Shown: positions 41,727-56,128, numbered from the stretch's first letter. The stretch: DNA of 64,000 nucleotides from Candidatus Levyibacteriota bacterium (GCA_027459745.1 DAIDHL010000006.1:19578-83577); one strand, 5' to 3'. Notes: generated by a model not told the origin, from the sequence alone. Translations and numbers: made by a program.

Positions 41727-42551
41727 TCAATTTTTTTTATTTCCACCTTTTTCCCAGCGTACATTATTTAATAGTGAAGAGTACACATCGTCTCCGATCG
41801 ATATTTTAGTACTATCAAGTTCTTCTTGATTGGGATTGCGATCCTGAAATGATACATAATTTGCATCCTCTATTATGGCAAGCGGTTGCTGCTCATCCCC
41901 TTCTCCCATTACTCCTACTGCTGTAGTAGCTAATGTATCAGCCACATTTACTTTTTCTGCATGCATTAGTTTGCCAAAAATATCCGGTTTTCCAATATAG
42001 CTATTAATAGCTGCAAAACCACTATACGCCAGCGCTACGCCAGTTACGCCCCAACGTAAAGGTGAGGTTCGACTATCTGTCATTACTACACCAACATATC
42101 TTAGCTTAAACTTTTGACAAAGATACTCTCTAATCTTATTTACACTTGCCTGAGGATCTTTAGGCCACAACGTATAAAAACCATTACTGTTTGATTCATC
42201 GACTCCAGCAGAAGCAACCAGAATGTTCTGATTTATCGTGATCATAAAGCCATATTGATTAAACTCCCGAGGTAAATATAATTCGGCCTCTTGTTTGGCC
42301 AAAGAATCTTTATCAATGCCAGGTTCAGGTTTTACCATTCGTCCTTCACAAATTGCAACAATTTTTGAAGCTATGGCGACAACTGAATTCTCTTTTAACT
42401 GTGAAATATATTTATCCAGAATGAGGTTTATATCTTTATCTTCCTGCGTGATTTTGTGGGTTTTTATGGCTGTGACTATCATAAAAGCATTATATACAAG
42501 AAGCTGCAGATTAACAAATAGATGCTCGTTTGCTATAATGAGCATGTCCAA
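41727..42551 (-). CDS. F420-0:gamma-glutamyl ligase (CofE)-family protein
   Basis: VAIASKIVAICEGR, ASAGVDESN, VVMTDSRTSPLRWGVTGVALAYSG blocks characteristic of PF01996. Confidence 0.5.
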   Translation of the reverse strand: MDMLIIANEHLFVNLQLLVYNAFMIVTAIKTHKITQEDKDINLILDKYISQLKENSVVAIASKIVAICEGRMVKPEPGIDKDSLAKQEAELYLPREFNQYGFMITINQNILVASAGVDESNSNGFYTLWPKDPQASVNKIREYLCQKFKLRYVGVVMTDSRTSPLRWGVTGVALAYSGFAAINSYIGKPDIFGKLMHAEKVNVADTLATTAVGVMGEGDEQQPLAIIEDANYVSFQDRNPNQEELDSTKISIGDDVYSSLLNNVRWEKGGNKKN

Positions 42552-42581
42552 ATCTGATAGTCCACGTAAACCTTTGTTTAT

Positions 42582-44333
42582 TTAATATGGTGGCCATAGC
42601 TCAATGGTTAGAGCACTAGATTGTGGATCTAGCGGTTGCGGGTTCGACTCCCGTTGGCCACCCCAAATAGGATTTGAAGGGTCAAACGTAGTAGTTTGGG
42701 TTGATTTTGCAGTCTTTTCCTCCGGTTCGAAAGTGTTTGGTTGTTGAACCATAATAGCCTTAGCTTCTTGTATCTTTTCAATGGGCTTTAGTAGGTCTAC
42801 GCTCAGTTTTTTATCCTTTAAGACGAAGTTAATTCCAAGTGCAGAAACAATTGCTCGTTTTTCGTCTGCTGAACCTTTTTCAAACCACCCTCTCGCTTGT
42901 TTAGCAAAATTAAATAATTTTTCCGAATTATCCAGCCATTCATCTTGGGTATCTCCGAGAGCCTTTATTTTTTCTTCAATCTGTTTTCTCTCTAAAATAT
43001 ACTGATTTTTCAGTTTAATATATTCATCATCACTTAAAATTTCTCCATCTTTGTTGGCTTCACTAAAGTATTTTTTGGAAAGATTGTCGAGTCTTCGTGA
43101 AGCCGCTGATATTGCAAATTTTAGATTTTTTAGCATATCAGCTCGAACATTGATATCATCTTGTCGATCTTTACGAAGGATATCCATTGTCCAGTCAATA
43201 AATTCCTGAGGTATGGTAAGGGTAGTAAGTAACTCGTCTATTTGGCGCTCTAAATCGTTTCCAGAAATGCCTGATTGAGTGCATTTAGGATTAAGGTATT
43301 TATCACAGTTGTAATGGATAAGATGTGTTACCTTTTGAGGTGCGATTGTCCCACATTTTGGGCACTTGTCATAGTTTTGAGCGTTAAATCTCTTATGACA
43401 ATTAGTGCAAGTTTTACGGAATCGTTCAGTTCCAGTAATTGATGAAGCACACATACATTTAATAAGATTAGTAAGTGGAAATTCGTGAGCCCTAACCCGT
43501 GGTTTCCCTTTGCGACCAAGAATTATTTGTGCTTTGTCAAATTCTTCTAGTGTAATCATTTGTTTATGTGCTCCTTGTAGTATTTCACCTCGGTACTTAT
43601 ACATTCCAGTATAGAATATGTTTCCAAACATTGCATACATTTGCGAGTCAGAAAGAGGTCTTCCATTCCTTCTGCGAAGTCCCCATTCGTTAGTTGCTAT
43701 TTCAAGTATTTTTGGTGGGCTGTACTGCATATCAAGAAGTAAATCCCACATTTTCCTAATTAAATTGAAACGTCTCTTATCAATAATAATATCGCGTAAT
43801 CCTTGAGGTTTTGCGGTGTTATTCAAATAACCAATAGGAGCAAGGATAGGTGCGTGTCCTGCAAGTATTTTTTCATCCATACCTCTTTTAGTAGCTTTTT
43901 GTAGATCAGTAATAAATTTATTGCTCATTCCAAACTCAACATACATAAGAAGAATATCGTCAATTCCATAGGTTTGAGTAGGCGTAACAATTTTTACGCC
44001 AAAATTTTGTACAAGCCAAATAATACGTCCTCCGTCAACAGGATTGCGAGCCAGACGATTGAGAGCCCAGCACACTATAATCTTAGCTTTTCCCTGTTCA
44101 AGTAGCTGGCACATTTCATTAAATTTAGGTCTGCCCGGTGCTTTTGCAGACTGTTCTTCTTCATAATCGGCAACTGGTTCTTGCGTATTTGTGAAGGAAA
44201 TAGTCTCATGGAATGTACGTTCCTGCGAAGAAATACTCGCCACTTGCTTATTTTTATCCTCTTGAGATTTACGTTTGTATTTTACATAAAGCTCAAGTTT
44301 ATTTCCTGCTAGGTAATATGAGTCATTATTCAT
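42582..44333 (-). CDS. Large serine recombinase (integrase): resolvase-type catalytic domain plus recombinase domain, zinc ribbon and coiled-coil
   Basis: 583 aa; LYVKYKRKSQEDKNKQ N-terminal S-containing block; CxxC...CxxC ribbon (CTNCHKRF...CPKCG); last about 28 codons are the antisense of tRNA-His (..GGQRESNPQPLDPQSSALTIELWPP). Confidence 0.75.
   Translation of the reverse strand: MNNDSYYLAGNKLELYVKYKRKSQEDKNKQVASISSQERTFHETISFTNTQEPVADYEEEQSAKAPGRPKFNEMCQLLEQGKAKIIVCWALNRLARNPVDGGRIIWLVQNFGVKIVTPTQTYGIDDILLMYVEFGMSNKFITDLQKATKRGMDEKILAGHAPILAPIGYLNNTAKPQGLRDIIIDKRRFNLIRKMWDLLLDMQYSPPKILEIATNEWGLRRRNGRPLSDSQMYAMFGNIFYTGMYKYRGEILQGAHKQMITLEEFDKAQIILGRKGKPRVRAHEFPLTNLIKCMCASSITGTERFRKTCTNCHKRFNAQNYDKCPKCGTIAPQKVTHLIHYNCDKYLNPKCTQSGISGNDLERQIDELLTTLTIPQEFIDWTMDILRKDRQDDINVRADMLKNLKFAISAASRRLDNLSKKYFSEANKDGEILSDDEYIKLKNQYILERKQIEEKIKALGDTQDEWLDNSEKLFNFAKQARGWFEKGSADEKRAIVSALGINFVLKDKKLSVDLLKPIEKIQEAKAIMVQQPNTFEPEEKTAKSTQTTTFDPSNPIWGGQRESNPQPLDPQSSALTIELWPPY
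42589..42665 (+). tRNA. tRNA-His (anticodon GTG) with G-1 and encoded CCA
   Basis: G-1 plus acceptor GTGGCCA/TGGCCAC, anticodon stem CTAGA/TCTAG with loop TTGTGGA, T-loop TTCGACT, 3' CCA. Confidence 0.85.
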
Positions 44334-44335
44334 AA

Positions 44336-44485
44336 TTAATTTTCTGGCATTTTTTTGCCAATTACACGAAAAATATTTATTAATCTTCTTGCAAGTTCTT
44401 GAACTTCTTCATCAGTAAGTACTACCCCATATCGCTTGGAATAAAGCTGTTTTAGGGTGGCAAGGTCTTCTGCTAATACGTTCAC
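44336..44485 (-). CDS. Unannotated 49-aa ORF (GTG start, SD AGGGGGTG 7 nt upstream) ending 2 nt before the integrase ATG; candidate recombination-directionality/regulatory protein
   Basis: Translation VNVLAEDLATLKQLYSKRYGVVLTDEEVQELARRLINIFRVIGKKMPEN; strong RBS; too short for the ORF track. Confidence 0.3.
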   Translation of the reverse strand: MNVLAEDLATLKQLYSKRYGVVLTDEEVQELARRLINIFRVIGKKMPEN

Positions 44486-44856
44486 AGATTGCCACCCCCT
44501 AGCTTCCCTATTTGGTAGGTATGTTTTAAGTGTATTGTCTTGAATTTGCCTAAATCAACCTTCGATAGCCACATAAGATTACACAAAAAAACAGCCCTGA
44601 AAAGGCTGTCTAAAAACAAAAAACTCAAACTTTTGTCGAACCTTTTCAGTAAACTGAATGGGTTAACGACCTTGTTTGAGTGTAATCTCTATCTCTGTAA
44701 CTCTGTTAGGTAACCTTATTTGTGTCAATTCGGTCAAGCCGAAAAGATATTCCTCAAAGAGCCTTCTAACGTCTTTGCTACTTCGATATCAGCATCGAAA
44801 CCTGATATTTAATTGTATCTTTACTGTACCACTATATGTATAAAAAAGCAAGATAT

Positions 44857-45432
44857 TTAGCCTTCTGATCTCTTATCAACTTCAAATTCAGCTTCACCAT
44901 TTTTTATTCCTAGTTTAGTTGTAATATAGCCGACAAAAGATGGTTGAGGACAATCAGCGTTAAGACGGCTCTGTTCCTCTGAAAACTCTTTAAGCTTATT
45001 TGTTAACACAAGCTCAGAATCTTTTCCCCAGCAATCAAGAGTTCTAAAAATTCGTACTCTATTATCTAAGGAGTCATAGCTACTTCCTGCTTTGTGGTGA
45101 ATTGCTGATTTTTGATTTGGGTTTAGAAATGTCATTAAACCACTGAGTGCAGCTACAATTAATGCAATAATGCCTGAAATGTTATGGGAGCCATCAAACT
45201 GAGCGAATGACTTCACAGCTACGATTCCTGAAAGGACTGTTGTAGGAACGCCCAGTAGTAGATGGAAGAAACCCCACATTGAGCTATCATTATAATGGCT
45301 TTTAGCACTGAATCGAGCAGATTCTTCAATTCTTAATGCCTCTTTTATAATTTCAGTCTTTGTTTTTGAAACTACTACTTCTGTTGCAGTTGTTTTTTTT
45401 CTTTTAGCCATATGCAGGAAAATAGTCTCCAA
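44857..45432 (-). CDS. 2-TM effector-like protein (SLATT-like), downstream partner of the nucleotidyltransferase
   Basis: 191 aa; two TM helices (FFHLLLGVPTTVLSGIVAV, ISGIIALIVAALSGLMTFL) followed by a charged C-terminal domain; 29-nt overlap with the upstream gene. Confidence 0.4.
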   Translation of the reverse strand: METIFLHMAKRKKTTATEVVVSKTKTEIIKEALRIEESARFSAKSHYNDSSMWGFFHLLLGVPTTVLSGIVAVKSFAQFDGSHNISGIIALIVAALSGLMTFLNPNQKSAIHHKAGSSYDSLDNRVRIFRTLDCWGKDSELVLTNKLKEFSEEQSRLNADCPQPSFVGYITTKLGIKNGEAEFEVDKRSEG

Positions 45433-46288
45433 ATATTAATCTCCATTGTTCTATTGCTTGCCTAATATACCCTCTATTAGCAAAATCCTCTGCTCTTATT
45501 GCTCTATTATATGCAGTTTCAAATTTTGTTACTGCATTATCTATTTTTTCAGGGGAATCTATGTAGTAGCCTATATCGCCACCATATCCAGCAGGATCAG
45601 GATTTTGTTTAGAAATGAGGGTTCTTCCTTTATCAAAGAAATATCTTGTGCCAGTGGAAAAATCACTTATGACAACATATTTCATTATTTCTAAAGCAAG
45701 TGCTTCTAAATGAAATGAATGAAAAAAACTTCCCTTTGTTCTATTCCATGCTTTTATCATTTTTATTAGTGGAACTAATTTATATTCATGTGAAGCATTG
45801 GATTCGGATATAAGCTCGACGTGTTTCGTGGGATCGGTAGCTATCCAGTTCTGTTTGATAGAGTTAGGAATTAAATATCCGCCTCCCTGGCGATGAAATC
45901 CCGGCACAACATCTATCAAAAAGTCATTAAAATGTATTGTTACTGCTTGTCCATCTCTTGATATGTGAGGCGTTCTGGTGTACGTACGTAATAGAGTACG
46001 TTTTACTAAATCCAATAGTCCAGCTTGCCCACCATTTTTACCGTTGTCATAGTTATAGAAGTATTTATTATCCAGTACTACAAAAACGTCTATATCTGCT
46101 TCTTGGAGTGGTGCAATCATTGTATGACGCTTATACGATCCTGTAAGAAAGGAGTCTTGTACGTCCATATTTGCTTCAATTGCTTCTCTAACATTGCTTT
46201 GTCTTGTTGAGACTATAGAAGATTGTGGTTCTGTTATTTCTAAATTTCTCTTAAATTGGAGGAATGATTCGTTTATAGTAATAGCCAT
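45404..46288 (-). CDS. SMODS / CD-NTase-like nucleotidyltransferase (pol-beta superfamily)
   Basis: TGSYKRHTMIAPLQEADIDVFVVLD (GS-x9-DxD) and a downstream acidic residue in DFLIDVVPG; start taken at MAITINES (46288); the ORF track extends to 46321. Confidence 0.55.
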   Translation of the reverse strand: MAITINESFLQFKRNLEITEPQSSIVSTRQSNVREAIEANMDVQDSFLTGSYKRHTMIAPLQEADIDVFVVLDNKYFYNYDNGKNGGQAGLLDLVKRTLLRTYTRTPHISRDGQAVTIHFNDFLIDVVPGFHRQGGGYLIPNSIKQNWIATDPTKHVELISESNASHEYKLVPLIKMIKAWNRTKGSFFHSFHLEALALEIMKYVVISDFSTGTRYFFDKGRTLISKQNPDPAGYGGDIGYYIDSPEKIDNAVTKFETAYNRAIRAEDFANRGYIRQAIEQWRLIFGDYFPAYG

Positions 46289-46321
46289 TTGGCAATGATT
46301 GTAGCACCATAAGATATGCAA

Positions 46322-46954
46322 CTACAATGGTTGTGATTGCCAATCACGTTTTTTTATCCAATGATATAAATTTGCTTCCGTTGTCCCATATCGTTTTGCA
46401 ATAAATCGTTGTGTGCTTCCGTTTGCCAACAAGGCTTTGATTTCCACTTCATATTGATCTAGCTTGCTTTTCCCTACGCCTTTTGGACGTCCCAGCTTGA
46501 TTCCAGCGAGTTTCTTTGCTTGCAGTGCCTCAATAGTGCGCTTGCTGATTAAATCGCGTTCAATTTCGCTTGCCATTGAGAAACACATTGCCACAAGTTT
46601 GCTTTGAATAGAGTTATTCAGCTCCCAACTCCCTTTTATAGCAAAAACATTTATTTGCTTTTGTGTAGCCACAGATAAAATTTCCATAATTTCAAGCATA
46701 GACCTTCCCAGCCTTGAGAGTTCGGAGACAATAAGATTATCTCCCTTTTGCATAGTTTCCAGCAATTCTGCAATCTTCCGCTTTCGCCACGACACTTTCC
46801 CTGATATTTGTTCAGAAACAAACTCCACATGTCCGAGTTGCTTTGTATTTGCCAGTTCCAAAATAGCTGATTTATTCTTCTCTAAGTCTTGCAAGGCAGT
46901 TGAAACTCGAAGGTAAGCATAGGTTTTAGGCTGTGAATTAAATAAAAACGTCAT
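46322..46954 (-). CDS. Small serine recombinase (resolvase/invertase, Hin/Gin-like) with a C-terminal HTH
   Basis: YAYLRVSTALQD catalytic-Ser block, SRLGRS, GRPKG plus HTH (GSTQRFIAKRYGTTEANLYHWIKK). Confidence 0.85.
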   Translation of the reverse strand: MTFLFNSQPKTYAYLRVSTALQDLEKNKSAILELANTKQLGHVEFVSEQISGKVSWRKRKIAELLETMQKGDNLIVSELSRLGRSMLEIMEILSVATQKQINVFAIKGSWELNNSIQSKLVAMCFSMASEIERDLISKRTIEALQAKKLAGIKLGRPKGVGKSKLDQYEVEIKALLANGSTQRFIAKRYGTTEANLYHWIKKRDWQSQPL

Positions 46955-47073
46955 GTTTATAATTTTATTATTATCATCCTTATAACAAAATCAAGCCTTT
47001 TCTTTTGTGGTTTCTTTTTAGGATAAATGAACGTTTTTGCTATAGAGAGCAATGCTATAATTATTCCAATATA

Positions 47074-48291
47074 ATGAAGGACTATTTCCATATCAATGAA
47101 GTTAGACCACAGGAGTTAATGCGGATATTGTTGATGCATTTCAACCAAGCTCAAAACATTAGTGATTTCACATATAGATATAAAAATCCAAGTTCAAGTA
47201 ACTATATCGATGTCTTTTGTAACGAAGATGGAAGTATAAAAAATATAGTTATATCTAAAGATTTCCCAGAAGAAGAACTTATGCAACTGAAGCAGAAAAT
47301 TCAAGATAATTTGATTACAGATAATGGCGAAATGGTTGGACAGATTATTGGTTTCTGTACAGAAAAAATATCAGGGTATTTTAAGTACAAAGATTTATTT
47401 CAAATATTTCCAGTCCCAGACAGTTCGCCAAAGCCTGATGTTGCTATTGCAGACCATCCTTTTGTTTTTGAGGTTAAGTTCAAAAAAAGTCCAGATTTTA
47501 CTATTAACAACAGTAGAAAAATGGAAAAAGCTATAATTTATTCCCGTTTATTAAATCAGTTGGTAAATCAGCACATTTGGTTAGGTAATAGGTACGGTCA
47601 ATTTGCATGGGCATACATTAATGTGGAAGATGTGGCTAATTTAACGAGCAAATGGGTTCAGTTGGGGTATATCCCAAAGGGCTTAGAAGATAACGGAGGA
47701 CGATTTTCATCACTAGATGCATTAAAACCAATAGAAAGAGAAGAATTCAATAAATACTATTCTTCTATGGGTAGGTCTACTGCAGATTTTAAGCTGCCAG
47801 ATAATTTGGAAGCCTCTTTAGACAAGGCTTTCTCTCTTGGTAGTTCCAAATGGAAGAAGTTCTTCATGGCTTGTAGCTGGTATGCTCAACATCCTTTTAC
47901 TTGGCAAGAATCACATTCATCTGCCTTTATAGAGTTAGTAACAGCTCTTGAATGCCTTGCTCAGGACAAGGATGTTTGTAAGTGCTGCAATCAACCCCTC
48001 TTGGAGAATGAAGACATCTGTAAATGCTGTGGACAGCCGCGTTATAGAGTAACAAAGCATTTCCAGCAATTCTTGAAGGAGTATGTACCAAGTATAGATC
48101 ACTATCCTCTAGCGAAAAAGACAATTTATCAAATTAGGTCGCAGCTTGCACATGGTATGGATTTATTACAGGCAGATTTAGAACCTTGGCATTTTATGAT
48201 GGATGCAAGGCAGGATGATCAGAGAAAACTACAATCTGACCTATACTTTATAACGCGTACTGCTATTTACAATTGGCTTCATAAGGCTTAA
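47074..48291 (+). CDS. Uncharacterised protein with a twin CKCC Zn-ribbon and an R-x4-H (HEPN-like) motif; defence-island cargo
   Basis: Start at ATG 47074 after a TATAAT; C-terminus CKCCNQPLLENEDICKCCGQP ... IRSQLAHG. Confidence 0.4.
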   Translation: MKDYFHINEVRPQELMRILLMHFNQAQNISDFTYRYKNPSSSNYIDVFCNEDGSIKNIVISKDFPEEELMQLKQKIQDNLITDNGEMVGQIIGFCTEKISGYFKYKDLFQIFPVPDSSPKPDVAIADHPFVFEVKFKKSPDFTINNSRKMEKAIIYSRLLNQLVNQHIWLGNRYGQFAWAYINVEDVANLTSKWVQLGYIPKGLEDNGGRFSSLDALKPIEREEFNKYYSSMGRSTADFKLPDNLEASLDKAFSLGSSKWKKFFMACSWYAQHPFTWQESHSSAFIELVTALECLAQDKDVCKCCNQPLLENEDICKCCGQPRYRVTKHFQQFLKEYVPSIDHYPLAKKTIYQIRSQLAHGMDLLQADLEPWHFMMDARQDDQRKLQSDLYFITRTAIYNWLHKA

Positions 48292-48300
48292 TGTATAAGC

Positions 48301-49044
48301 ATGAAAAAGCAAAAAATTAAAGCTAGCAAATTACGAAACACCTCTGATCCTACTTTAGCAAAACCACACGCAAAAGGAGCAAATGTAGCTCTTGTTCAGC
48401 CGTCAAAAGACAATGTATGGGGAAGATTTTACTTTGTTCAATATCATAGGTATCCGCTGTTGCTTTCCAAAAGCGCAAATTACTACAAGGACGTAATTGA
48501 TTTACTGACAAAAGCAAGAGCTTTACCCGTAGGAAAAGATAATACTCGATTATTAGATGACCAGTTGCGCGATGAACTTGAATTTGCCTCTATGCAGTTT
48601 CTGATTTTTACCAAACTTGCATTTGAATATATGACTACAGAAATGCTAACAATGATAAACAACATCCATCTCCACAAAGGCGGTAAAGTTGAAGTTCCTT
48701 GGGAGAACTTTTCAATTACTGAACGCTTGACCATACTTCTTAAAAATTTGAATCTTAAATTTATTGTTCCTGATTGTCTCAATAAAATTCTTACTAATAG
48801 AGATTTAGTTGAACATCCTTCAAAAGATCGTCTTTACTCCCCGACAGAAGACGAGTGGAAAAATGTGCATCTTGCATGGGTACTTAGTGGAGAGATAGAA
48901 GGTTGCTTAGATAAACTTGTGAACTTTGTTAATCCAATCATTGAAGCATTTGATAAATTTGTTGATGCAAATCAAATTCCTGGACAATTAACGGGTCTGC
49001 AAAGAGGATTAAAATCGATAGATAATTTCAAAAAGTCAAAGTAA
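48301..49044 (+). CDS. Uncharacterised protein with an R-x4-H motif (TNRDLVEHPS); likely operon partner of the 47074 gene
   Basis: 9-nt intergenic gap; no recognisable family. Confidence 0.35.
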   Translation: MKKQKIKASKLRNTSDPTLAKPHAKGANVALVQPSKDNVWGRFYFVQYHRYPLLLSKSANYYKDVIDLLTKARALPVGKDNTRLLDDQLRDELEFASMQFLIFTKLAFEYMTTEMLTMINNIHLHKGGKVEVPWENFSITERLTILLKNLNLKFIVPDCLNKILTNRDLVEHPSKDRLYSPTEDEWKNVHLAWVLSGEIEGCLDKLVNFVNPIIEAFDKFVDANQIPGQLTGLQRGLKSIDNFKKSK

Positions 49045-49053
49045 AAGTGGTAA

Positions 49054-49779
49054 TTATAAAGAATCTGCGTAAGCTTGAATTAGAAGTTTTGCTCGTTCTT
49101 TACATTCGTTTTCTGTTAATCTCCTATTTGCAGGAGTAACGGCATGTCTTTGAAGTTGAGTCGTTTGTCTAACATCTGTTGCAAATGACTCATTTTGTCC
49201 AGCGAGTGCTGCGAGTTGTCTCCAACCACCTACATGATGGGCAATTATTTCAAGTGCCTTATAGATGCCATAAAGAGGTTTGTCGTCATCAATAATTTCT
49301 TCATTAAAATAATGTAATGCGTGTTTTAAGGTATCATCATTAAGCGCTTTATTTACTATTAAAGTATCATTTATAGGGCTAGCGCTATCGTGCATTTCCT
49401 GCGTTACTATGAGTGCTGTGCCTTGTATAGTTACTTGGTGAGTTGTTGTCTGAATCTGAACGCGTTCTACTGCCTTTGCAGCATCATGTATTCCTAAGAA
49501 GTGATCTTTGTGTCCTTCAGCATTTGTTTTCCATGTATGGTTGAAATTAACACTTACTTTTATATTTTGCCGGAAAGCCCATGCATCTAAGTATAATTCT
49601 GCAATATTTTTTGCTTCTTCAAGTTGATTCTCGTCATCTACACCAACGTACAAAATTCCATCTCTTATTTCTATTTCAGTACCATCGGGATTATAAAAAA
49701 CTTCACAAACATCCTTAAAGGGAAAATTGATAATCTCGCCTTGAATTCCGTAGGGTTTGTTCATAAATGATAACTTCAA
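49054..49779 (-). CDS. Uncharacterised 241-aa protein translationally coupled to the Type III res gene
   Basis: TTG start overlapping the res TGA (TTGA overlap); alternative ATG 15 nt downstream (49762-49764). Confidence 0.35.
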   Translation of the reverse strand: MKLSFMNKPYGIQGEIINFPFKDVCEVFYNPDGTEIEIRDGILYVGVDDENQLEEAKNIAELYLDAWAFRQNIKVSVNFNHTWKTNAEGHKDHFLGIHDAAKAVERVQIQTTTHQVTIQGTALIVTQEMHDSASPINDTLIVNKALNDDTLKHALHYFNEEIIDDDKPLYGIYKALEIIAHHVGGWRQLAALAGQNESFATDVRQTTQLQRHAVTPANRRLTENECKERAKLLIQAYADSL

Positions 49780-52085
49780 AGAAATGTTATTTGTTTCAAT
49801 ACATCATCTAAGTTTGTTTTGCTAACAAGATAAAATTTATTTCCATTACCATTTAACTTCTCCCATAATTCACCAAGTTTAACTTTATAGGCAGTATCTT
49901 CATTAGAAAGTCTGTCTTCACCTTTATATTCTAATAACAAATAATCACCGTTTTTTGTTTTTACAATGATATCAGGATAGAATTTTCCTGACTGCCAACC
50001 TTGAAGGTAAAAATCTTCTTTTTCTCTGTTTCTATACCACCATTCAATGTTATCAATAATATCTAGTCTTGAAGCCAACTCAGTTTCTTCTCCATTCAAA
50101 TTTCCTGCCTTTTCAAATAAATGTTTATTGAAGTGTTCTTGAGAAACTCTTGCTAGAGAAATTTCTTTTTCTGGAGTAAAGTAAGCAGAATCAACAGTTA
50201 TTTCTCCTTTGTTCAATAATCCGTCAAACCGCTTTGTCGCATACTCTTGTATTATTTTTGATACTTCTTCTGCTATTCGTTCCTTTAGCCTAAATCTGTT
50301 TAGACTTAATTCTTCTACGCTATGCGTCTTGGATAAATCCTTCATAAGAAGATCAATATATCTTGCCATTTCTTCAGAAGCTATTATTGGTTTCCTCACA
50401 TTTCTTTTAAGCCAGTTAGTTACTTCTTCAAGTGAAAAATCCTCTGGGTAAAGAATTAAAGATAATTTCCCCTGTGTAATTTTGAAAAGTCCATTCTTCT
50501 CGTCAATATCAATTACAGCTTTTCTATTTTGATCTTCGTGGAAGTTGATATCAAACGGTTTGTAATATTCGTCAAGCATAAACTCATTTCCAATTAAATC
50601 TCTATTAAAGGCAAGACTGTCTGTTCTTCCTTTCAATCCAAACATAGGAATGTTAATGTTGTCATCTTTAATTACTTGTTTGTATTCTTCCTTTTCAACA
50701 ACAATTTTTCCTTTGTTTTCCTTTAAGTCCTCTCTAGAGTAGCCATGCTGTTCAAGCCCTTTAATTATTGCGTCTGAGGCTTTCCTAAAATTCTCTGAGG
50801 ATGTAAATACATAGGAGTTGTTGAGTTCTAAGTTTTTCTTTTCTACAGCATTAGGAAGACGCATAATACGTCCTATGGTTTGTTCTACCGCTATTGTAGA
50901 ACCAATGTTAGCTACTGATACTAACACGTAAGCAAATGGACAGTCCCAGCCTTCTTTTAGCGCATTAACTGTAATGATGTAGCGTATATTACATTTAGGT
51001 GATAAAAGATCAATATTACTTATTTCGTCTTGTTTGGAAGTTTTGATTGCAATTTCATTTTCTGAAATTTTAAGCTCGGAAATTAAGAATTCCTTAATTT
51101 GATCAACATAAATTTTACTCTCACTTTCCTTTTCTTGTTCTGCCTGTAGCAACATAATGGGTCTTATGTATTCTTTTGTCTCACGCTTTTCTTTTTGAGC
51201 CAGTTTTTCTAGTTCTTTTAATTGGTTTATTCCATCTCTGATTGTTTCTTGCCATTGAGAAACATTAGATAGCCAAATAGGAATCTTTACCATTTTTTGT
51301 GCTTTTAATTCTGAAGCTGAAATTTCAACTAACACATTGCTTTCTTGCCTTGGTGTGGCAGTGTATTCAATGATAAAGGAGGGGTTAAGATTTTGAAGCA
51401 TCTCAAAAGAAAGTGGGGTTTGAGCATTGTGTCCTTCATCTAATACTACAATAGGCGAATTGATTTTAATAACATTGGCAAGAGAGTAATAAATTCCTCC
51501 TTCTTCGTCTTTATCCAAAAAGTTAGTATCCTCAACAAGATTTTCAAAATGAGAAAGTAAAGCTCCATTACTCTGGAATACTTTTAGCCACAATTTGTCA
51601 TTTCTTCTGAAAGCTGCAAGACTAGAGACAACAATACAAAGGTTATTTTGTATATCTGATTTTTGAATAGAAAGAGCTTCTTCTACGGTAAAAATTTTTA
51701 TATTGTTACCAAACTGAGAATCCAGTGCTTCTCGGTATGGATGGTTTCTGTCTTTTAATGCCTTGAGTGTTTGATTACGAATTGCATCGGATGGGACAAA
51801 CCACATGACAAGTCCTGTTCCATTTTTCTCTTGTAAGTAATTATCAAGGATAACTGATAAGCTATGACAAGCAACGACTGTTTTCCCTCCACCTGTAGGA
51901 ATTTTGATACAAACAAATGGAGTTTCTTCAAGTTGTGGGATAGGTTTATATGCCTTTCCTTCTTCTCCTGCTTTATCTAAAAATGCTAGTCTTATACCTC
52001 TTGAGCCTTTAAGCGTAGAAGCGTCATTAAGGAATTGTTTTAATTCATCAAGTGCTGTTTGTTGGTAAGGTTTTAATTGGAACAT
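49776..52085 (-). CDS. res: Type III restriction enzyme Res subunit (SF2 helicase plus C-terminal PD-(D/E)xK nuclease)
   Basis: Walker A KIPTGGGKTVVA, DEGH box (VVLDEGHNAQT), C-terminal YPDIIV...LLEYKG nuclease motif. Confidence 0.8.
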   Translation of the reverse strand: MFQLKPYQQTALDELKQFLNDASTLKGSRGIRLAFLDKAGEEGKAYKPIPQLEETPFVCIKIPTGGGKTVVACHSLSVILDNYLQEKNGTGLVMWFVPSDAIRNQTLKALKDRNHPYREALDSQFGNNIKIFTVEEALSIQKSDIQNNLCIVVSSLAAFRRNDKLWLKVFQSNGALLSHFENLVEDTNFLDKDEEGGIYYSLANVIKINSPIVVLDEGHNAQTPLSFEMLQNLNPSFIIEYTATPRQESNVLVEISASELKAQKMVKIPIWLSNVSQWQETIRDGINQLKELEKLAQKEKRETKEYIRPIMLLQAEQEKESESKIYVDQIKEFLISELKISENEIAIKTSKQDEISNIDLLSPKCNIRYIITVNALKEGWDCPFAYVLVSVANIGSTIAVEQTIGRIMRLPNAVEKKNLELNNSYVFTSSENFRKASDAIIKGLEQHGYSREDLKENKGKIVVEKEEYKQVIKDDNINIPMFGLKGRTDSLAFNRDLIGNEFMLDEYYKPFDINFHEDQNRKAVIDIDEKNGLFKITQGKLSLILYPEDFSLEEVTNWLKRNVRKPIIASEEMARYIDLLMKDLSKTHSVEELSLNRFRLKERIAEEVSKIIQEYATKRFDGLLNKGEITVDSAYFTPEKEISLARVSQEHFNKHLFEKAGNLNGEETELASRLDIIDNIEWWYRNREKEDFYLQGWQSGKFYPDIIVKTKNGDYLLLEYKGEDRLSNEDTAYKVKLGELWEKLNGNGNKFYLVSKTNLDDVLKQITFL

Positions 52086-52086
52086 A

Positions 52087-53715
52087 TTAGAATTTCTTTA
52101 GCTCGTAAGGAATTTGCTTAAAGATAATATTGTTTTTCAAGCAAAATTCTTCATCCAATAGGCACTTATCTGCATAAATTACTTTAATCCCATCTTGAGC
52201 AAGCATAGGTTTCACTGATTTATCATCCAAGACATTTTTACCATTACTTGAGAATAAGAGAAAGTAATGACTTTGTCCCATACTCCCAAGATATGGATTT
52301 TTAATAGAGGTTAAATCAAGGTAGTCATGAGTCTCGGTAAAGTAAATGTATGAGGCTAAATCTTCATATTGAGAGTTTGGATTAATAAAACCACTATTAT
52401 CAAAAAGTTCTCCATTTAATTCAAGATATTGAAAACCTTGTCCTGTTCCATCTGGATATTTTGCTCCTTCATAACCTTCAATGACTTTTTGCAATCTCTT
52501 TGCGGTGACGTTTCTCGCGATATTCTTTTCAAGCTCAATAAGAATAAATCTTCTGTTACCACCATCCTCATTATTTGATTCAAGAACAGCTTGACCTGTT
52601 GTGCCAGAGCCAGCAAAAGAGTCTAAGTATATTCCATCCGGATCCCCCATGAGTTGAATAACTTTGTTTATCAATCCTACTGGTTTGGGAAATGGAAATT
52701 GTTCTCTTAAACCCATGAACCGAAGTTGTGTAGTTCCTTGCTCAGTTATTACCTCCGTTTCATCCCATATAGTCTTAGCACTTACATTAGCATTTCTATA
52801 TTTCTCAAATATTCTCCACTCTCCCGTTTGTTTTTGCTTAGCATAGATAACATCTGTTGACTCATTTTTAGTATTTTCATTTAATTTTTTACCACTCCAC
52901 CTCCAGCAACTTTCTTCATTTCTACTATTAAGTGGTAAAACTTCAACGCTAAACTCCTTACTCTTTTCATTAGATACTGGTGAAAATCCATTTTCATCTT
53001 TCTTTTGAGGGTTTACATAGATTGGATAATAGAGATTGGGTCGGTTAAATCGTCCAAATTTTGGATTACGATTTCTTAACTCTCTACTAGAAAAATCCCC
53101 GATCCTATCTTTTTCAGGCAAATGCCCTTCATCTGCATTTAATTGGTATAATTTTGTCTTGTTAGTTTTTGAATAACAAAGGAGATATTCATGTGTTTTT
53201 GCTAATTGCTTAAAGGTATGACCACGTTTATTTGATTGAACAATTATTTGAGCTTGGAAATTATTTTCTCCGAAAATTTCATCCAAAATTAATCTTAGAT
53301 AATGAACCTCATTGTCATCAATTGAAACAAAAATTGCTCCATCATCAGAGAGAAGTTCATATAGAAGTTTTAGACGTGGATACATCATGCAAAGCCATTT
53401 ATCATGTCTACACAAATCTTCACCTTCTGCGCCAACGACCTCATTAAGCCATGCTCTAATTTGAGGTGAATTTACCTTGTCATTGTAAACCCATTCTTCA
53501 TTTCCAGTATTGTAGGGGGGATCAATATAAACGCATTTGACTTTGTTGTAATAAAAGGGCATCAATGCTTTGAGAGCCTCAAGGTTATCTCCTTCAATTA
53601 GGAGATTCTCAGAACCATCAACAGATAACGCTTTATTTGGTTTTAACACTCTAAATGGCAGGTCTTTATCGTGGTTTTCTACCTTATCTTTTCCAATCCA
53701 TGTAAATTGTGGCAT
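52087..53715 (-). CDS. mod: Type III Mod DNA methyltransferase (beta-class amino-MTase)
   Basis: Motif IV VYIDPPYNTGN precedes motif I DSFAGSGTTGQA; 1-nt gap to res. Confidence 0.8.
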   Translation of the reverse strand: MPQFTWIGKDKVENHDKDLPFRVLKPNKALSVDGSENLLIEGDNLEALKALMPFYYNKVKCVYIDPPYNTGNEEWVYNDKVNSPQIRAWLNEVVGAEGEDLCRHDKWLCMMYPRLKLLYELLSDDGAIFVSIDDNEVHYLRLILDEIFGENNFQAQIIVQSNKRGHTFKQLAKTHEYLLCYSKTNKTKLYQLNADEGHLPEKDRIGDFSSRELRNRNPKFGRFNRPNLYYPIYVNPQKKDENGFSPVSNEKSKEFSVEVLPLNSRNEESCWRWSGKKLNENTKNESTDVIYAKQKQTGEWRIFEKYRNANVSAKTIWDETEVITEQGTTQLRFMGLREQFPFPKPVGLINKVIQLMGDPDGIYLDSFAGSGTTGQAVLESNNEDGGNRRFILIELEKNIARNVTAKRLQKVIEGYEGAKYPDGTGQGFQYLELNGELFDNSGFINPNSQYEDLASYIYFTETHDYLDLTSIKNPYLGSMGQSHYFLLFSSNGKNVLDDKSVKPMLAQDGIKVIYADKCLLDEEFCLKNNIIFKQIPYELKKF

Positions 53716-53760
53716 AATTACCTTTTCATCTTACCACAGGAATAATTATCTTCAAAGAGG

Positions 53761-53779
53761 AAACTCTAAGGTCTTAGAC
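53761..53779. repeat. 19-bp motif AAACTCTAAGGTCTTAGAC (palindromic core CTAAG-gt-CTTAG), copy 1, 46 nt upstream of mod
   Basis: Exact inverted copy at 56129-56147. Confidence 0.7.
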
Positions 53780-54034
53780 TGTCGAAGGGTAAAGAGCATC
53801 AACAGGTACTTCCAAAGCCTTGGCTATACGATATAGCGTATAACTGGAAGGAGTACGCTTGGCTACTTCAATCAAGTTGATATATGTGCGGTAGAATTGG
53901 CATTTACTTGCCAGTTCTTCTTGTGACAACCCTTTTTTTGTTCGAGCTTTCTTGATGTTATCTCCAATAATCTCTGTGAACTTCTGTTTGCTAAGCATGC
54001 TTCCATTGTCAGAAATAATCGCACTATTGTACAA
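53774..54034 (-). CDS. XRE-family HTH transcriptional regulator (candidate controller/C-protein or satellite repressor)
   Basis: IKKARTKKGLSQEELASKCQFYRTYINLIEVAKRTPSSYTLYRIAKALEV HTH_3 pattern; 86 aa. Confidence 0.7.
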   Translation of the reverse strand: MYNSAIISDNGSMLSKQKFTEIIGDNIKKARTKKGLSQEELASKCQFYRTYINLIEVAKRTPSSYTLYRIAKALEVPVDALYPSTV

Positions 54035-54100
54035 CGCACTATTAGTCAGTTTGTATCTTGATTTTCTTGTTAAACCAATTTATTATGAAAAGTAAGAGGT

Positions 54101-54718
54101 ATGAGACCTGAATCAATTTATAGACCGATTTATCTTTGGTTAAGCAATCAGCCAAAGTGGTTGCAGATTGGTGTTCCCCTAGTTGTTTTAGTATTATCGT
54201 TTATTGTTCTTCAATGGTTTGGATTGATAGTCATGGCTGCTGTTTTAGTCTTTACGTTTGTCTATGGACGCAAAGACCCTGATGTCAGTAGGCGCTTTAC
54301 GATTAAATACATCACAGGTTTGTCAAAGTTTTCAAAACCAATGAGCAATATGGCTCTATATATTGATGAAGATGGATTACGCTTCAAATATCCATTACGA
54401 GGCGAGGTAAAAGTTGCTTACGACACAATCAGTAAGATGGAAGCTGAAACAAAAACACAAATTACCAGAACCGCAAGTATGCTCAAGGGTGCAGTTGGAT
54501 TAGCTCTTGCTGGTCCCTTGGGAGCCATGATAGGTATGGGCATAGGTAGTAAACATGACGATTCACAATATTTTGTTACGGTGGTTTACAAAGATGAACT
54601 AGGAGAAGATAACCTTATTGTTTTGCAACAAAGTGGGATGATGTCCGCAAATGCGTATGAGGTTGTATCCGCTATGAAAGAGGCAAGGAAAAGGTATATA
54701 CTCTCACATAAAAATTAG
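54101..54718 (+). CDS. Hypothetical membrane protein (2 N-terminal TM helices, a C-terminal Gly-rich helix)
   Basis: ORF; 2-nt gap to the FtsK-gamma-like gene. Confidence 0.3.
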   Translation: MRPESIYRPIYLWLSNQPKWLQIGVPLVVLVLSFIVLQWFGLIVMAAVLVFTFVYGRKDPDVSRRFTIKYITGLSKFSKPMSNMALYIDEDGLRFKYPLRGEVKVAYDTISKMEAETKTQITRTASMLKGAVGLALAGPLGAMIGMGIGSKHDDSQYFVTVVYKDELGEDNLIVLQQSGMMSANAYEVVSAMKEARKRYILSHKN

Positions 54719-54719
54719 T

Positions 54720-54923
54720 TTGCTTATGGATAGTGCTTTGTATTTGGCTGCAAAAAATATATTCAAAGATGAAGTTTCTATTAGCACCGCTACACTTCAA
54801 CGATATTTCCAGGTTCCATATTACCAAGCCCGAGTAGTTTTAGATAGCCTCATTCGAATTGGATTTTGTGAGGAACAAGTTGGAAGTAAGCCTTGTCGGG
54901 TTATATCAAATGAAAAAAACTAA
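54720..54923 (+). CDS. Standalone FtsK-gamma (winged-helix, KOPS-binding-like) domain protein
   Basis: SISTATLQRYFQVPYYQARVVLDSLIRIGFCEEQVGSKPCRVI resembles the FtsK gamma consensus ...ASTS.LQRRL.IGYNRAAR..D.ME..G.V...GSKPREVL. Confidence 0.5.
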   Translation: MLMDSALYLAAKNIFKDEVSISTATLQRYFQVPYYQARVVLDSLIRIGFCEEQVGSKPCRVISNEKN

Positions 54924-55006
54924 GAAAGAAGTAGATAAAGAGGTTGATTTGTTTGCAGAACAATTCGCAAGGTTGCTTATCGAACAAGTTAGGTGGAAAA
55001 GAAACA

Positions 55007-55306: not shown

Positions 55307-55373
55307 CAGGGTTCTCATAAAACTTGTGTCCTTACGTAGGTATTCATGCAAGGAAGTGAACTCACCCGCAAAG

Positions 55374-55406
55374 AAAACCGAGGTTCTAGCCGATCTCGGT
55401 TTTTTG
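55374..55406. terminator. Bidirectional rho-independent terminator AAAACCGAG-gttctagccgat-CTCGGTTTTTT between convergent genes
   Basis: GC stem with A-run upstream and T-run downstream. Confidence 0.6.
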
Positions 55407-56096: not shown

Positions 56097-56128
56097 ATTT
56101 TACCCCTAAGTTGTCAAGTTTTTTTAAT

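What the first reader, a model, noticed from the sequence alone, without database searches (positions are those of the whole stretch)
47074..49779. Three uncharacterised genes wedged between a resolvase/CBASS-like module and a Type III R-M on the integrative element: candidate novel defence module
The tandem pair 47074-48291 and 48301-49044 (9-nt gap, same strand) has no family I can name. Protein 1 ends with a twin Zn-ribbon CKCCNQPLLENEDICKCCGQP followed by an R-x4-H motif (IRSQLAHG). Protein 2 carries another R-x4-H (NRDLVEHPS). R-x4-6-H is the catalytic signature of HEPN RNases, which are common abortive-infection effectors. Gene 3 (49054-49779, opposite strand) is coupled to res by a TTGA start/stop overlap. 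Being flanked on both sides by recognisable defence genes is the classic guilt-by-association signature of undescribed defence systems.
Basis: partly seen in the sequence, partly recalled or inferred. Interest (0 to 1): 0.72.

Follow-up and report, generated by a model that had tools for sequence, protein, structure and literature searches.

The report
Three independent defence-island genes, two HEPN
The three unnamed genes are real, but they are three separately mobile cargo genes in the defence region of an integrated element rather than one module; two of them are new families of HEPN-type predicted RNases, a well-known kind of anti-phage suicide or toxin effector.

Summary
All three ORFs exist as described. 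They sit between a type I CBASS (cyclase plus 2TM effector) with a resolvase on one side and a Type III R-M on the other, on a roughly 15 kb element integrated at tRNA-His in a CPR/Patescibacteria-like genome.

None of the three matches Pfam, PADLOC, NCBIfam, PHROGs or PDB by sequence.

- **P3**: no Rx4H motif and no fold assigned. Its C-terminal domain recurs fused to a retron-type reverse transcriptase. Its real start is the ATG at 49764, not the TTG of the "TTGA overlap".

The three are not a unit. A 76%-identical P1 sits beside the same resolvase with no P2, P3 or R-M. All other P1, P2 and P3 homologues occur alone. In a sister element a different gene replaces P3.

Verdict: new members of a known kind (HEPN Abi/toxin-like genes stacked beside R-M). 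Function is untested.

The parts
47074..48291 (+). P1, 405 aa. A new stand-alone HEPN-type protein family with about 56 clusters in 5.8 billion proteins.
   Evidence: ORF. Homologues, alignment A1. AF2 model pLDDT 84.4, pTM 0.82. No Pfam, PADLOC, NCBIfam, PHROG or PDB sequence hit.
47074..47793 (+). P1 N-terminal α/β domain (residues about 1-240). It contains the near-invariant GYF(R/K)YKDxFQI motif at 47374-47403. Presumed sensor or regulatory domain.
   Evidence: Secondary structure of the model. Conservation. No significant structural match; the best Foldseek hits are RnlA at E 0.056-0.29.
47806..48288 (+). P1 C-terminal helical HEPN-like domain (residues about 245-405), with invariant E293 (47950-47952).
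47977..48030 (+). Cys-rich insert (CKCC...CKCC, residues 302-319) between the E293 helix and the next HEPN helix. Only the second CxxC (C316, C319) is invariant.
   Evidence: Weak zinc-ribbon Pfam hits in 14 of 30 members. Low-confidence region of the model.
48136..48153 (+). P1 Rx4H motif, R355-S-Q-L-A-H360 (followed by G361).
   Evidence: Invariant in 30/30. Kept in Nitrospirota, Asticcacaulis and Bacteroidota relatives.
48301..49044 (+). P2, 247 aa. A HepT-like minimal HEPN core (residues about 50-223) with a conserved 47-residue N-terminal extension and a conserved C-terminal tail. A very small family (9 clusters).
48799..48816 (+). P2 Rx4H motif, R167-D-L-V-E-H172 (followed by P173).
   Evidence: R167, D168, E171, H172 and P173 are invariant in 9/9. 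This loop is low-confidence in the model.
49054..49764 (-). P3, 236 aa from ATG 49764 (the ORF can be extended to TTG 49779). A two-domain protein of an undescribed family with about 137 clusters at 50% identity.
   Evidence: No family or PDB hit.
49057..49377 (-). P3 C-terminal domain (residues about 135-241 in ORF numbering). Invariant residues: K144, PLxG(I)YK 168-174, T206, R211-H212 (49144-49149) and R229. A portable module.
   Evidence: Alignment A3. The same domain is fused after a retron-type RT in P0214 and to other N-terminal domains in P0195, P0221 and P0223.
46955..47073 (.). Divergent resolvase/P1 control region. It is conserved in three elements and has an extended -10 (TGCTATAAT, 47053-47061) 12 nt before the P1 ATG.
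   Evidence: Alignment of window, L001 and L066 intergenic regions. Coordinates.
46322..46954 (-). Small serine recombinase (resolvase), divergent from P1. The only neighbour of P1 that is kept in all three related elements.
   Evidence: Pfam Resolvase 2e-27. 83% identity in L001 and 60% in L066.
44857..46321 (-). Type I CBASS: CD-NTase (45404-46321) and 2TM effector (44857-45432). Variable cargo, absent from L001 and L066.
   Evidence: PADLOC..
49776..53715 (-). Type III R-M: res (49776-52085) and mod (52087-53715). With P2 and the slot gene (P3) it forms a block that is absent between P1 and the XRE gene in L066.
42582..44333 (-). Large serine recombinase of the element. Its 3' end overlaps tRNA-His (42590-42665, + strand), which marks the left end of the element.

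Best explanation
The interval holds three separate single-gene cargo genes stacked in the variable 'defence' region of a roughly 15 kb element. The element is integrated at tRNA-His in a CPR/Patescibacteria-type genome.

**P1** is a stand-alone HEPN protein.
- It has an α/β N-terminal domain, inferred to be a sensor or regulator.
- Its C-terminal HEPN domain carries an invariant acidic residue (E293), a Cys-rich insert in the usual helix-2/helix-3 insertion site, and an invariant R-S-x3-H-G motif.
- Inferred mechanism: like other HEPN Abi or toxin proteins, it dimerises to form a composite, metal-independent RNase site. It is held inactive until an infection cue acts on the N-terminal domain. 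It then cleaves cellular and/or phage RNA and stops growth (abortive infection).

**P2** is an unrelated, HepT-like minimal HEPN protein.
- It has an invariant R-D-x2-E-H-P motif.
- It lacks an MNT antitoxin partner and the HepT tyrosine.
- It entered this element with the Type III R-M block.
- Inferred role: a second-line RNase backing up restriction. This is the 'HEPN next to R-M' layout described for at least 16 HEPN clades.

**P3** is a third independent gene placed in a swap-in slot just downstream of res.
- It is probably co-transcribed with res.
- Its C-terminal domain is a portable module also found after a retron-type RT.
- It most likely acts as a small stand-alone defence or toxin-type protein. 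Its biochemical activity cannot be named.

Shown: gene models, conservation, folds, and independence of the three genes. Inferred: RNase activity, dimerisation, activation by phage, and any anti-phage effect.
For: Fold and motif:
- The Rx4H motifs are invariant, and they are the only conserved Rx4-6H motifs in each protein.
- A polar residue follows R (S in P1, D in P2), there is an upstream invariant acidic residue, and the insert lies between helices 2 and 3. These are the HEPN hallmarks listed in PMC3710099.

Independence:
- L066 has resolvase plus P1 (76% identity) followed directly by the XRE gene, with no P2, P3 or R-M.
- L002-L010 and L055-L061 have P1 relatives alone.
- L050-L054 have P2 relatives alone.
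- L001 has a different 317-aa gene in the P3 slot.
- 39 P3 loci show a solitary gene.
- hhalign finds no relation among the three families.

Defence context:
- Window: CBASS and Type III R-M.
- P1 relatives lie next to Hachiman HamA/HamB, an HKD+Snf2 candidate, and an MTase plus Mrr nuclease.
- P2 relatives lie next to a BglII-type R-M and an Abi_C gene.
- P3 relatives lie next to CBASS, Type III R-M, VapBC/MazF-like ORFs (read by eye from the translations) and large serine recombinases.
- The P3 C-terminal domain is fused to a retron-type RT (PADLOC 4e-119), a gene present on 20 contigs.
- No relatives were found in phage, plasmid or IMG/VR collections, so these are cell or integrative-element genes, not phage genes.
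Against: - No activity has been tested.
- The P2 model is only moderate (pLDDT 69), and its Rx4H loop is modelled with low confidence.
- No sequence profile links either protein to any HEPN Pfam family.
- Several P1 relatives sit among housekeeping genes such as GroEL, trigger factor and ClpP. The defence-island association is therefore partial, and it was not compared with a background rate.
- How stand-alone HEPN toxins without a visible antitoxin are kept silent is unexplained.
- For P3 there is no structure, no known fold and no catalytic motif. Its assignment rests on context and one convincing fusion.
- The conserved 9-nt P1-P2 spacing in two elements leaves room for a local functional pairing.
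Confidence: 0.55

Rival explanations
1. P1 and P2 form a two-gene HEPN/HEPN system in this element. They would act either as a heteromeric RNase or as a toxin plus a HEPN-like regulator, co-transcribed from the conserved promoter upstream of P1.
For: - Same strand with a 9-nt gap, and the identical spacing in sister element L001.
- No terminator-like site between them.
- HEPN-HEPN operons have precedent: Bxe_C0808 with AbiU2 (PMC3710099).
- A P2 relative lies directly downstream of an Abi_C (HEPN-type) gene in L051. Another lies beside a 203-aa protein containing RNHIRH in L054.
Against: - L066 carries a 76%-identical P1 with the same resolvase and promoter but no P2.
- None of about 16 other P1 loci has a P2 relative, and none of 5 other P2 loci has a P1 relative.
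- The window and L001 are close relatives, so their shared spacing counts as one observation.
- Family sizes differ: 56 clusters for P1 against 9 for P2.
Confidence: 0.15
2. All three genes, with or without the resolvase, make up one new multi-gene defence system.
For: Tight packing with 9-nt and 11-nt gaps, and flanking by CBASS and R-M. One short contig (L012) has a P3 relative followed by the start of a P1 relative.
Against: - P3 is on the opposite strand and is replaced by an unrelated gene in L001.
- L066 has P1 only.
- No locus other than the window carries all three.
- In L012, P2 is absent and the gene order differs.
Confidence: 0.03
3. P1 and/or P2 are maintenance or addiction toxins, or competitor-exclusion factors, of the integrative element rather than anti-phage effectors.
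For: - P1 is kept next to the element's resolvase in three elements that share no other cargo.
- The closest structural matches of P2 are HepT toxins of toxin-antitoxin modules.
- All close relatives are on integrative elements.
Against: - No antitoxin-like partner is conserved with either gene: no MNT, no RnlB-like gene and no small upstream ORF.
- More distant P1 relatives are chromosomal singletons without recombinases.
- Neighbouring cargo is anti-phage.
- The distinction from abortive infection is partly semantic.
Confidence: 0.15
4. P3 is an accessory or regulator of the Type III R-M, or of the element's recombination (for example a DNA-binding or directionality factor), not a defence effector.
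For: - P3 is co-directional with res and 11 nt downstream of it, with no terminator between them.
- A P3 relative lies about 3 kb from a Type III res/mod in L029.
- Five P3 loci carry a large serine recombinase nearby.
- The segment G-R-x2-L-A-x-L-A-G-x4-Y-V-x-D-V resembles a helix-turn-helix by eye (inference).
Against: - The same slot in L001 holds an unrelated gene even though res is 93% identical.
- Most P3 relatives have no R-M nearby.
- No HTH family hit appears even at E<=1 in 25 members.
- The distance to the recombinase and its orientation vary.
Confidence: 0.1

Closest known systems
HepT toxins of HEPN/MNT (MntA-HepT) toxin-antitoxin systems, e.g. Shewanella SO_3166 (PDB 5yep) and Aphanizomenon HEPN toxin (7ae2)
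   Different: - P2 is about 100 residues longer, with a conserved 47-residue N-terminal extension and a conserved C-terminal tail.
- No MNT gene lies next to P2 in any of the 7 loci examined.
- The HepT Rx4HxY tyrosine is absent (P2 has RDxxEHPS/T).
- There is no sequence-level hit.
Stand-alone multidomain HEPN defence or toxin proteins: RnlA/LsoA, ApeA, AbiV, RAZR (PD-T7-4)
   Different: - No Pfam or PADLOC hit to RnlA, HEPN_Apea, AbiV, DUF4145 or PD-T7-4.
- In RAZR the zinc ribbon is an N-terminal domain. In P1 the Cys motif is an insert inside the HEPN domain, and only half of it is conserved.
- No RnlB-like antitoxin is present.
- The N-terminal domain, with its GYFRYKDxFQI motif, has no identified relative.
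HEPN genes embedded in R-M neighbourhoods (PrrC-PrrI paradigm; at least 16 HEPN clades, Anantharaman et al. 2013)
   Same: P2 (window and L001: Type III R-M; L050: BglII-type R-M) and P1 (L055: MTase plus Mrr-type nuclease) sit beside R-M genes. The literature description is in PMC3710099.
   Different: The association is not obligatory for either family. No ABC-ATPase or anticodon-nuclease-type N-terminal domain is present. Regulation by the R-M has not been tested.
Retron RT-effector fusions (PADLOC RT-Protease_XI, RT-TIR_XII, RT-Toprim_I-C)
   Same: P0214 has a retron-type RT (residues 12-343, E 4e-119). It is followed at residues 348-435 by the P3 C-terminal domain, in the place where those retron types carry protease, TIR or Toprim.
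   Different: The window has no RT and no ncRNA. P3 itself pairs this domain with a different N-terminal domain. The domain has not been shown to be an effector.
AbiU / AIPR (PF10592)
   Same: P0094 joins the P3 C-terminal domain to the C-terminal 200 residues of an AbiU/AIPR protein.
   Different: P3 and 24 other family members give no AIPR or AbiU hit even at E<=1. P0094 lacks the P3 N-terminal domain and the first 330 positions of AbiU, so it looks like a deletion chimera of two adjacent genes rather than a designed fusion.

Membership tests
HEPN superfamily (P1 C-terminal domain) | Four-helix up-down bundle fold matching solved HEPN domains | tested here: met
HEPN superfamily (P1 C-terminal domain) | Conserved Rx4-6H with a polar residue after R, plus an upstream conserved acidic residue | tested here: met
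   R355, S356, H360, G361 and E293 are invariant in 30/30 and kept at 24-31% identity. Criteria taken from PMC3710099. The residue-level structural equivalence of the motif could not be inspected.
HEPN superfamily (P1 and P2) | Dimerisation forming a composite active site; metal-independent RNase activity | not testable with these tools
   Needs biochemistry or multimer modelling.
HEPN superfamily (P2) | HEPN fold | tested here: met
HEPN superfamily (P2) | Conserved Rx4-6H with a polar residue after R | tested here: met
   R167, D168, E171, H172 and P173 are invariant in 9/9. There are only 9 homologues, and the loop is modelled with low confidence.
HepT/MntA (HEPN-MNT) toxin-antitoxin | Adjacent MNT nucleotidyltransferase antitoxin gene | tested here: not met
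   No NTP_transf_2/MNT gene lies adjacent to P2 in the window, L001 or L050-L054.
HepT/MntA (HEPN-MNT) toxin-antitoxin | Rx4HxY motif with the AMPylated tyrosine (from my own knowledge of PMC7641770; I did not read the paper) | tested here: not met
   P2 has RDxxEHP(S/T), with no Y at position H+2 in any of the 9 sequences.
RnlA/LsoA toxins | Sequence or structural match to RnlA domains (TBP-like NTD and NRD plus HEPN DBD) | tested here: inconclusive
   The four best Foldseek PDB hits are RnlA, but with E 0.056-0.29 and TM about 0.15. No Pfam hit.
RnlA/LsoA toxins | Cognate RnlB/LsoB antitoxin gene adjacent | tested here: not met
   No conserved small partner gene in about 16 P1 loci.
RAZR / PD-T7-4 (N-terminal zinc ribbon plus DUF4145 HEPN) | DUF4145 or PD-T7-4 profile match and an N-terminal Cys4 zinc-finger domain | tested here: not met
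   No PADLOC or Pfam hit. The P1 Cys motif is internal to the HEPN domain and only one CxxC is conserved. Architecture of RAZR taken from PMC13017515.
ApeA (HEPN_Apea plus ApeA_NTD1) | Pfam HEPN_Apea or ApeA_NTD1 match | tested here: not met
   No such hit for any of 30 P1 family members at E<=1.
CBASS accessory gene (Cap) | Conserved linkage to a CD-NTase operon | tested here: not met
   The resolvase separates CBASS from P1. L001 and L066 carry P1 without CBASS. Only one P3 locus group (L017-19) has a CD-NTase nearby.
Type III R-M accessory subunit (P3) | Conserved linkage to res/mod | tested here: not met
   L001 has res at 93% identity but an unrelated gene in the slot. Only one P3 element (seen in L029, with the overlapping contig L025 too short to show the R-M) among 18 P3 loci with usable flanks has res/mod nearby.
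AbiU / AIPR (P3) | PF10592 or PADLOC AbiU profile match | tested here: not met
   Only the chimeric P0094 matches, and it does so through its non-P3 half.
Retron (P3) | Reverse transcriptase and msr/msd ncRNA in the locus | tested here: not met
   No RT domain and no Rfam hit other than tRNA in 42000-58500. The link is only through the P0214 fusion.

The most novel reading that the evidence does not exclude
The P3 family may define a new stand-alone defence protein. Its roughly 100-residue C-terminal domain (PLYGIYKA ... TTQxxRH ... ECxxRA) would be a previously unrecognised effector or trigger-binding module. The same module would then serve as the fused effector of a new retron type (P0214).

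In parallel, the P1 N-terminal domain (GYFRYKDxFQI) would be a new infection-sensing domain driving a HEPN RNase. The conserved resolvase-P1 cassette would be a mobile unit that seeds defence hotspots in CPR integrative elements.
Probability: 0.2. Interest if true: 0.6.

Novelty: new member of a known kind. Interest (0 to 1): 0.4.

Why it matters
If the predictions hold, P1 and P2 add two HEPN RNase families that no current library recognises (Pfam, PADLOC 2.0, NCBIfam, PHROGs). They come from CPR/Patescibacteria, organisms with tiny genomes whose anti-phage repertoire is poorly known.

The comparison of three sister elements also shows how a defence hotspot is assembled on tRNA-integrating elements. 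A fixed resolvase-P1 core is present in all three, with interchangeable CBASS, R-M, P2 and slot genes.

The P3 domain is a lead to a possible new retron-associated module.

None of this changes the established picture that HEPN Abi- or toxin-like genes cluster with R-M. It extends the catalogue and supplies clear mutational targets.

Tried and rejected
- **Sequence-family searches.** All three proteins, and all members of their alignments, were searched in Pfam, PADLOC, NCBIfam and PHROGs. The only results were weak zinc-ribbon hits for P1.
- **PDB sequence searches.** Single-sequence and profile searches gave nothing below E 0.09.
- **Profile-profile comparison.** Pairwise hhalign of the three families, and of P1 against the L051 Abi_C protein, showed no relation.
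- **Foldseek of P1 against PDB.** Nothing significant. The RnlA hits are a lead only.
- **AFDB50 search.** The library was unavailable.
- **Shared partner of P2 homologues.** I compared the genes next to the P2 homologues in L051-L054 (12 proteins) by BLASTP. None is related to another or to any window gene.
- **Phase-variable promoter.** I looked for an invertible promoter between the resolvase and P1. A 20-nt inverted repeat (46637-46656 / 47025-47044) is not conserved in L001 or L066, so I treat it as chance.
- **Element ends.** A search for att-type direct repeats found none longer than chance.
- **ncRNA or tandem repeats** (type III TA or retron): none.
- **Relatives in phages, plasmids and IMG/VR:** none.
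- **P3 structure.** No prediction was made for P3 because the prediction quota went to P1 and P2.
Full report
**1. What is in the sequence**

The three ORFs are present as described: 47074-48291(+), 48301-49044(+) and 49054-49779(-). The P1 stop and the P2 start are 9 nt apart, and P2 and P3 converge with 9 nt between their stop codons.

- A CD-NTase (PADLOC cyclase 4e-102; Pfam SMODS) overlaps a 2TM effector (1e-52), which makes a type I CBASS.
- Next comes a small serine recombinase (resolvase), then the three unknown genes.
- After them lie Type III res (PADLOC 3e-94) and mod (3e-158), then an XRE-type HTH gene.
- The array starts at a large serine recombinase gene whose 3' end overlaps tRNA-His.
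- It runs to about 58 kb, where what look by eye like NadD- and NadE-type housekeeping genes resume.

This is a roughly 15 kb integrative element. The closest relatives are in Candidatus Levyibacteriota and Patescibacteria MAGs. An independent gene caller on a Logan contig carrying the identical element gives P1 405 aa, P2 247 aa and P3 236 aa.

**2. Checking the motifs**

CKCC...CKCC (P1 residues 302-319), RSQLAH (P1 355-360) and RDLVEH (P2 167-172) are all there. By composition about one Rx4-6H is expected per protein, and P1 has three and P2 two, so the motif alone means nothing.

Conservation is what matters.
- In an alignment of 30 P1 homologues (34-76% identity), only R355/H360 is invariant. 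S356, G361, E293, D368 and the second CxxC (C316, C319) are invariant with it. The other two Rx4-6H strings are not conserved.
- Relatives from Nitrospirota, Asticcacaulis and Bacteroidota at 24-31% identity keep RSxxxH, the upstream glutamate and the second CxxC. They lack the first CxxC.
- The 'twin zinc ribbon' is therefore a clade-specific elaboration, not a family feature.
- In the nine P2 homologues (42-85% identity), R167, D168, E171, H172 and P173 are invariant.
- P3 has no Rx4-6H at all.

The TTGA string at the res/P3 junction exists. However, every aligned P3 homologue begins at MNKP, which is the sixth codon of the ORF, and the independent gene call starts there too. P3 most probably starts at ATG 49764, 11 nt after the res stop codon.

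**3. What the proteins are**

None of the three matches any model in Pfam, PADLOC 2.0, NCBIfam or PHROGs, or any PDB sequence. This holds for single sequences, for profiles, and when every member of each alignment is scanned at E<=1. The only result is weak zinc-ribbon hits for P1. Identification therefore rests on fold.

*P1.* The AlphaFold2 model is good (pLDDT 84.4, pTM 0.82). It shows an α/β N-terminal part (about 1-240) and a helical C-terminal part (about 245-405). The Cys-rich insert between them is poorly defined.
- Some unrelated helical proteins are mixed in, and TatC ranks first.
- The motif pattern agrees with the HEPN hallmarks in Anantharaman et al. 2013 (PMC3710099). There is a polar residue after the arginine, an invariant acidic residue upstream, and an insert exactly where HEPN domains usually carry inserts, between helices 2 and 3.
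- I therefore regard the P1 C-terminal domain as a HEPN domain.
- The N-terminal domain has no convincing structural relative. The best Foldseek hits are four RnlA entries at E 0.056-0.29. That is a lead towards an RnlA-like layout, not a result.
- The N-terminal domain contains a near-invariant GYF(R/K)YKDxFQI motif. A functional site of its own is therefore likely.

*P2.* The model is moderate overall (pLDDT 69), but its helical core (50-165, 189-223) scores 80-94.
- Together with the invariant RDxxEH, this makes P2 a HepT-like minimal HEPN.
- It also has a strongly conserved 47-residue N-terminal extension and a conserved C-terminal tail. Both are modelled poorly.

- The family is small, with 137 clusters at 50% identity in 1.84 billion representatives.
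- The invariant residues are concentrated in the C-terminal 100 residues: K144, PLxGxYK, T206, R211-H212 and R229.
- That domain is portable. In P0214 (441 aa, found on 20 contigs) it follows a retron-type reverse transcriptase (PADLOC RT-Protease_XI 4e-119 over residues 12-343). It occupies the position where related single-gene retrons carry protease, TIR or Toprim.
- P0195, P0221 and P0223 combine it with other N-terminal regions.
- P0094 joins it to the C-terminal 200 residues of an AbiU/AIPR protein. Both halves are truncated there, so this looks like a deletion chimera of two neighbouring genes.

hhalign finds no relationship among the three families.

**4. Are they a module? Comparative context says no**

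*Sister element L001* (Candidatus Levyibacteriota) has resolvase (83% identity), P1 (76%), P2 (85%), then an unrelated 317-aa gene in the position of P3, then res (93%) and mod (66%). It has no CBASS.

*A third element, L066,* has a tyrosine integrase, the resolvase (60%) and P1 (76%), followed immediately by the XRE gene. It has no P2, no P3, no R-M and no CBASS.

The divergent resolvase/P1 intergenic region is conserved in all three. It includes an extended -10 element, TGCTATAAT at 47053-47061 in the window (TGGTATAAT in L001 and L066), which lies 12 nt before the P1 ATG in the window.

So the conserved unit is resolvase plus P1. The block P2 / slot gene / res / mod is an insertion between P1 and the XRE gene.

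*Further afield:*
- P1 relatives in Patescibacteria, Nitrospirota, Asticcacaulis, Bacteroidota and metagenomes are singletons with no P2 or P3 next to them.
- Five P2 relatives have no P1 relative beside them. Their neighbours are unrelated to each other.
- The 39 P3 loci show a solitary gene in ever-changing surroundings.
- The only other co-occurrence is a 1.9 kb contig (L012), where a P3 relative is followed by the first 77 residues of a P1 relative, in a different order and without P2.

**5. Defence association**

The association is real but partial.
- P1 relatives lie next to Hachiman HamA/HamB, an HKD+Snf2 candidate, and an MTase plus an Mrr-type nuclease. Others lie next to GroEL, or to trigger factor and ClpP.
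- P2 relatives lie next to a BglII-type R-M and directly downstream of an Abi_C gene.
- P3 relatives lie next to CBASS (cyclase plus 2TM), Type III res/mod, VapBC/MazF-like genes (judged by eye from the ORF translations), DNA methyltransferases and, repeatedly, large serine recombinases.
- No relative of any of the three is found in 50,697 phage records, 72,556 plasmids or IMG/VR. This argues against phage anti-defence genes.
- I did not compute a background rate, so enrichment is qualitative.

**6. Most likely mechanism**

*P1 (inferred).* It is a single-protein HEPN RNase. It dimerises to build the composite Rx4H active site and is controlled by its N-terminal domain, with the Cys insert possibly playing a part. 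Infection triggers it to cleave RNA and arrest the cell. This is the logic of RnlA, ApeA, AbiV and RAZR (PMC3710099; PMC13017515).

*P2 (inferred).* It is a HepT-like RNase without the MNT antitoxin or the AMPylated tyrosine. It travels with R-M systems as a second line of defence, which is the arrangement described for at least 16 HEPN clades.

*P3 (weakly inferred).* It is a separate small defence or toxin-type protein in a swap-in slot downstream of res, and its activity is unknown.

*Unexplained:* what keeps two antitoxin-less HEPN proteins silent.

*Rivals, with my probabilities:*
- a local P1-P2 pair, supported by the conserved 9-nt spacing, the HEPN-HEPN operon precedent and the Abi_C gene upstream of a P2 relative: about 0.15;
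- addiction or exclusion functions for the element: about 0.15;
- P3 as an R-M or recombination accessory: about 0.1;
- a three-gene system: about 0.03.

**7. Comparison with known families, and novelty**

P1 and P2 meet the fold and motif criteria of the HEPN superfamily. They fail the defining features of the following families:
- HepT/MntA: no MNT neighbour and no Rx4HxY tyrosine;
- RnlA/RnlB: no antitoxin, and the fold match is inconclusive;
- RAZR/PD-T7-4: no DUF4145 match and a different zinc-ribbon position;
- ApeA: no profile match.

P3 is not an AbiU/AIPR member, not a retron component and not an R-M subunit.

Overall these are new members of a known kind. They are previously unmodelled HEPN families, plus one orphan family, in a defence hotspot of CPR integrative elements.

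Interest is moderate (0.4). The HEPN call is sound, and the dissection of the hotspot is informative. But a specialist would expect to find HEPN genes next to R-M, and no function has been shown.

Noticed in passing
window 42582-42665; L001 3247-3319; L045 2068-2141: The large serine recombinase ORF runs antisense through the whole tRNA gene at the integration site. This is tRNA-His in the window, tRNA-Lys in L001 and tRNA-Gln in L045. The last roughly 25-28 codons of the recombinase are therefore encoded by the complement of the tRNA, and the C-terminal tail would differ between the integrated and excised forms.
   Followed up: partly
window 46955-47073; L001 7881-8000; L066 8884-9000: The divergent resolvase/P1 intergenic region is conserved across three elements whose resolvases are only 60% identical. 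It has an extended -10 (TGCTATAAT at 47053-47061) only 12 nt before the P1 ATG, so the mRNA is nearly leaderless. The motif ACGTTTTT occurs in inverted orientation at the resolvase start and in the P1 promoter, which may be a resolvase binding or autoregulation site.
   Followed up: partly
L001 10020-10973 (-) versus window 49054-49764 (-): The slot immediately downstream of Type III res is a swap-in position. L001 carries an unrelated 317-aa gene there, which looks by eye like a PD-(D/E)xK or DUF5655-like protein. In the same comparison res is 93% identical but mod only 66%, suggesting a change of specificity subunit.
   Followed up: partly
L062 5001-6326 (P0214); also L063 and L064: A solitary retron-type RT fused to the P3 C-terminal domain is present on 20 contigs. 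It is inserted between a PDDEXK_1 gene and a 1002-aa UvrD-helicase/PDDEXK gene (an AddAB-like pair). The 220-nt upstream gap could hold an msr/msd RNA but was not examined.
   Followed up: no
L045 4835-5854 (P0094): A 339-aa ORF joins the P3 C-terminal domain to the C-terminal 200 residues of AbiU/AIPR. It is probably a deletion chimera of two adjacent defence genes. It lies beside a large serine recombinase, a Vsr-like gene and a cytosine methyltransferase.
   Followed up: partly
L012 700-1419 and 1655-1873: A P3 relative (64% identity) is followed on the same strand by the first 77 residues of a P1 relative (41% identity), where the contig ends. This is the only other place where two of the three families meet.
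   Followed up: partly
L051 2657-3727 and 3890-4627; L054 97-708: One P2 relative lies directly downstream of a 356-aa Abi_C (PF14355) protein whose sequence contains RNLYGDSH. Another lies next to a divergent 203-aa protein containing RNHIRH. P2-type genes may therefore tend to sit beside other HEPN-like genes.
   Followed up: partly
L005 6288-7490; L009 7245-8258; L010 6293-8282: Several P1 relatives are decayed. There is a frameshift split in a Nitrospirota MAG, and apparent IS or transposase insertions split the gene in two Bacteroidota MAGs. This fits a dispensable and possibly costly gene.
   Followed up: no
window 45404-45432: By the longest-ORF gene models, the CBASS cyclase and the 2TM effector overlap by 29 nt. 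The independent gene call shortens both, to 294 aa and 184 aa.
   Followed up: no
L066 7116-8147 and 13389-14828: The third sister element uses a tyrosine integrase next to tRNA-Ile, instead of a large serine recombinase, and carries a D5-type primase. The resolvase-P1 cassette is therefore shared between elements with different integration machinery.
   Followed up: no
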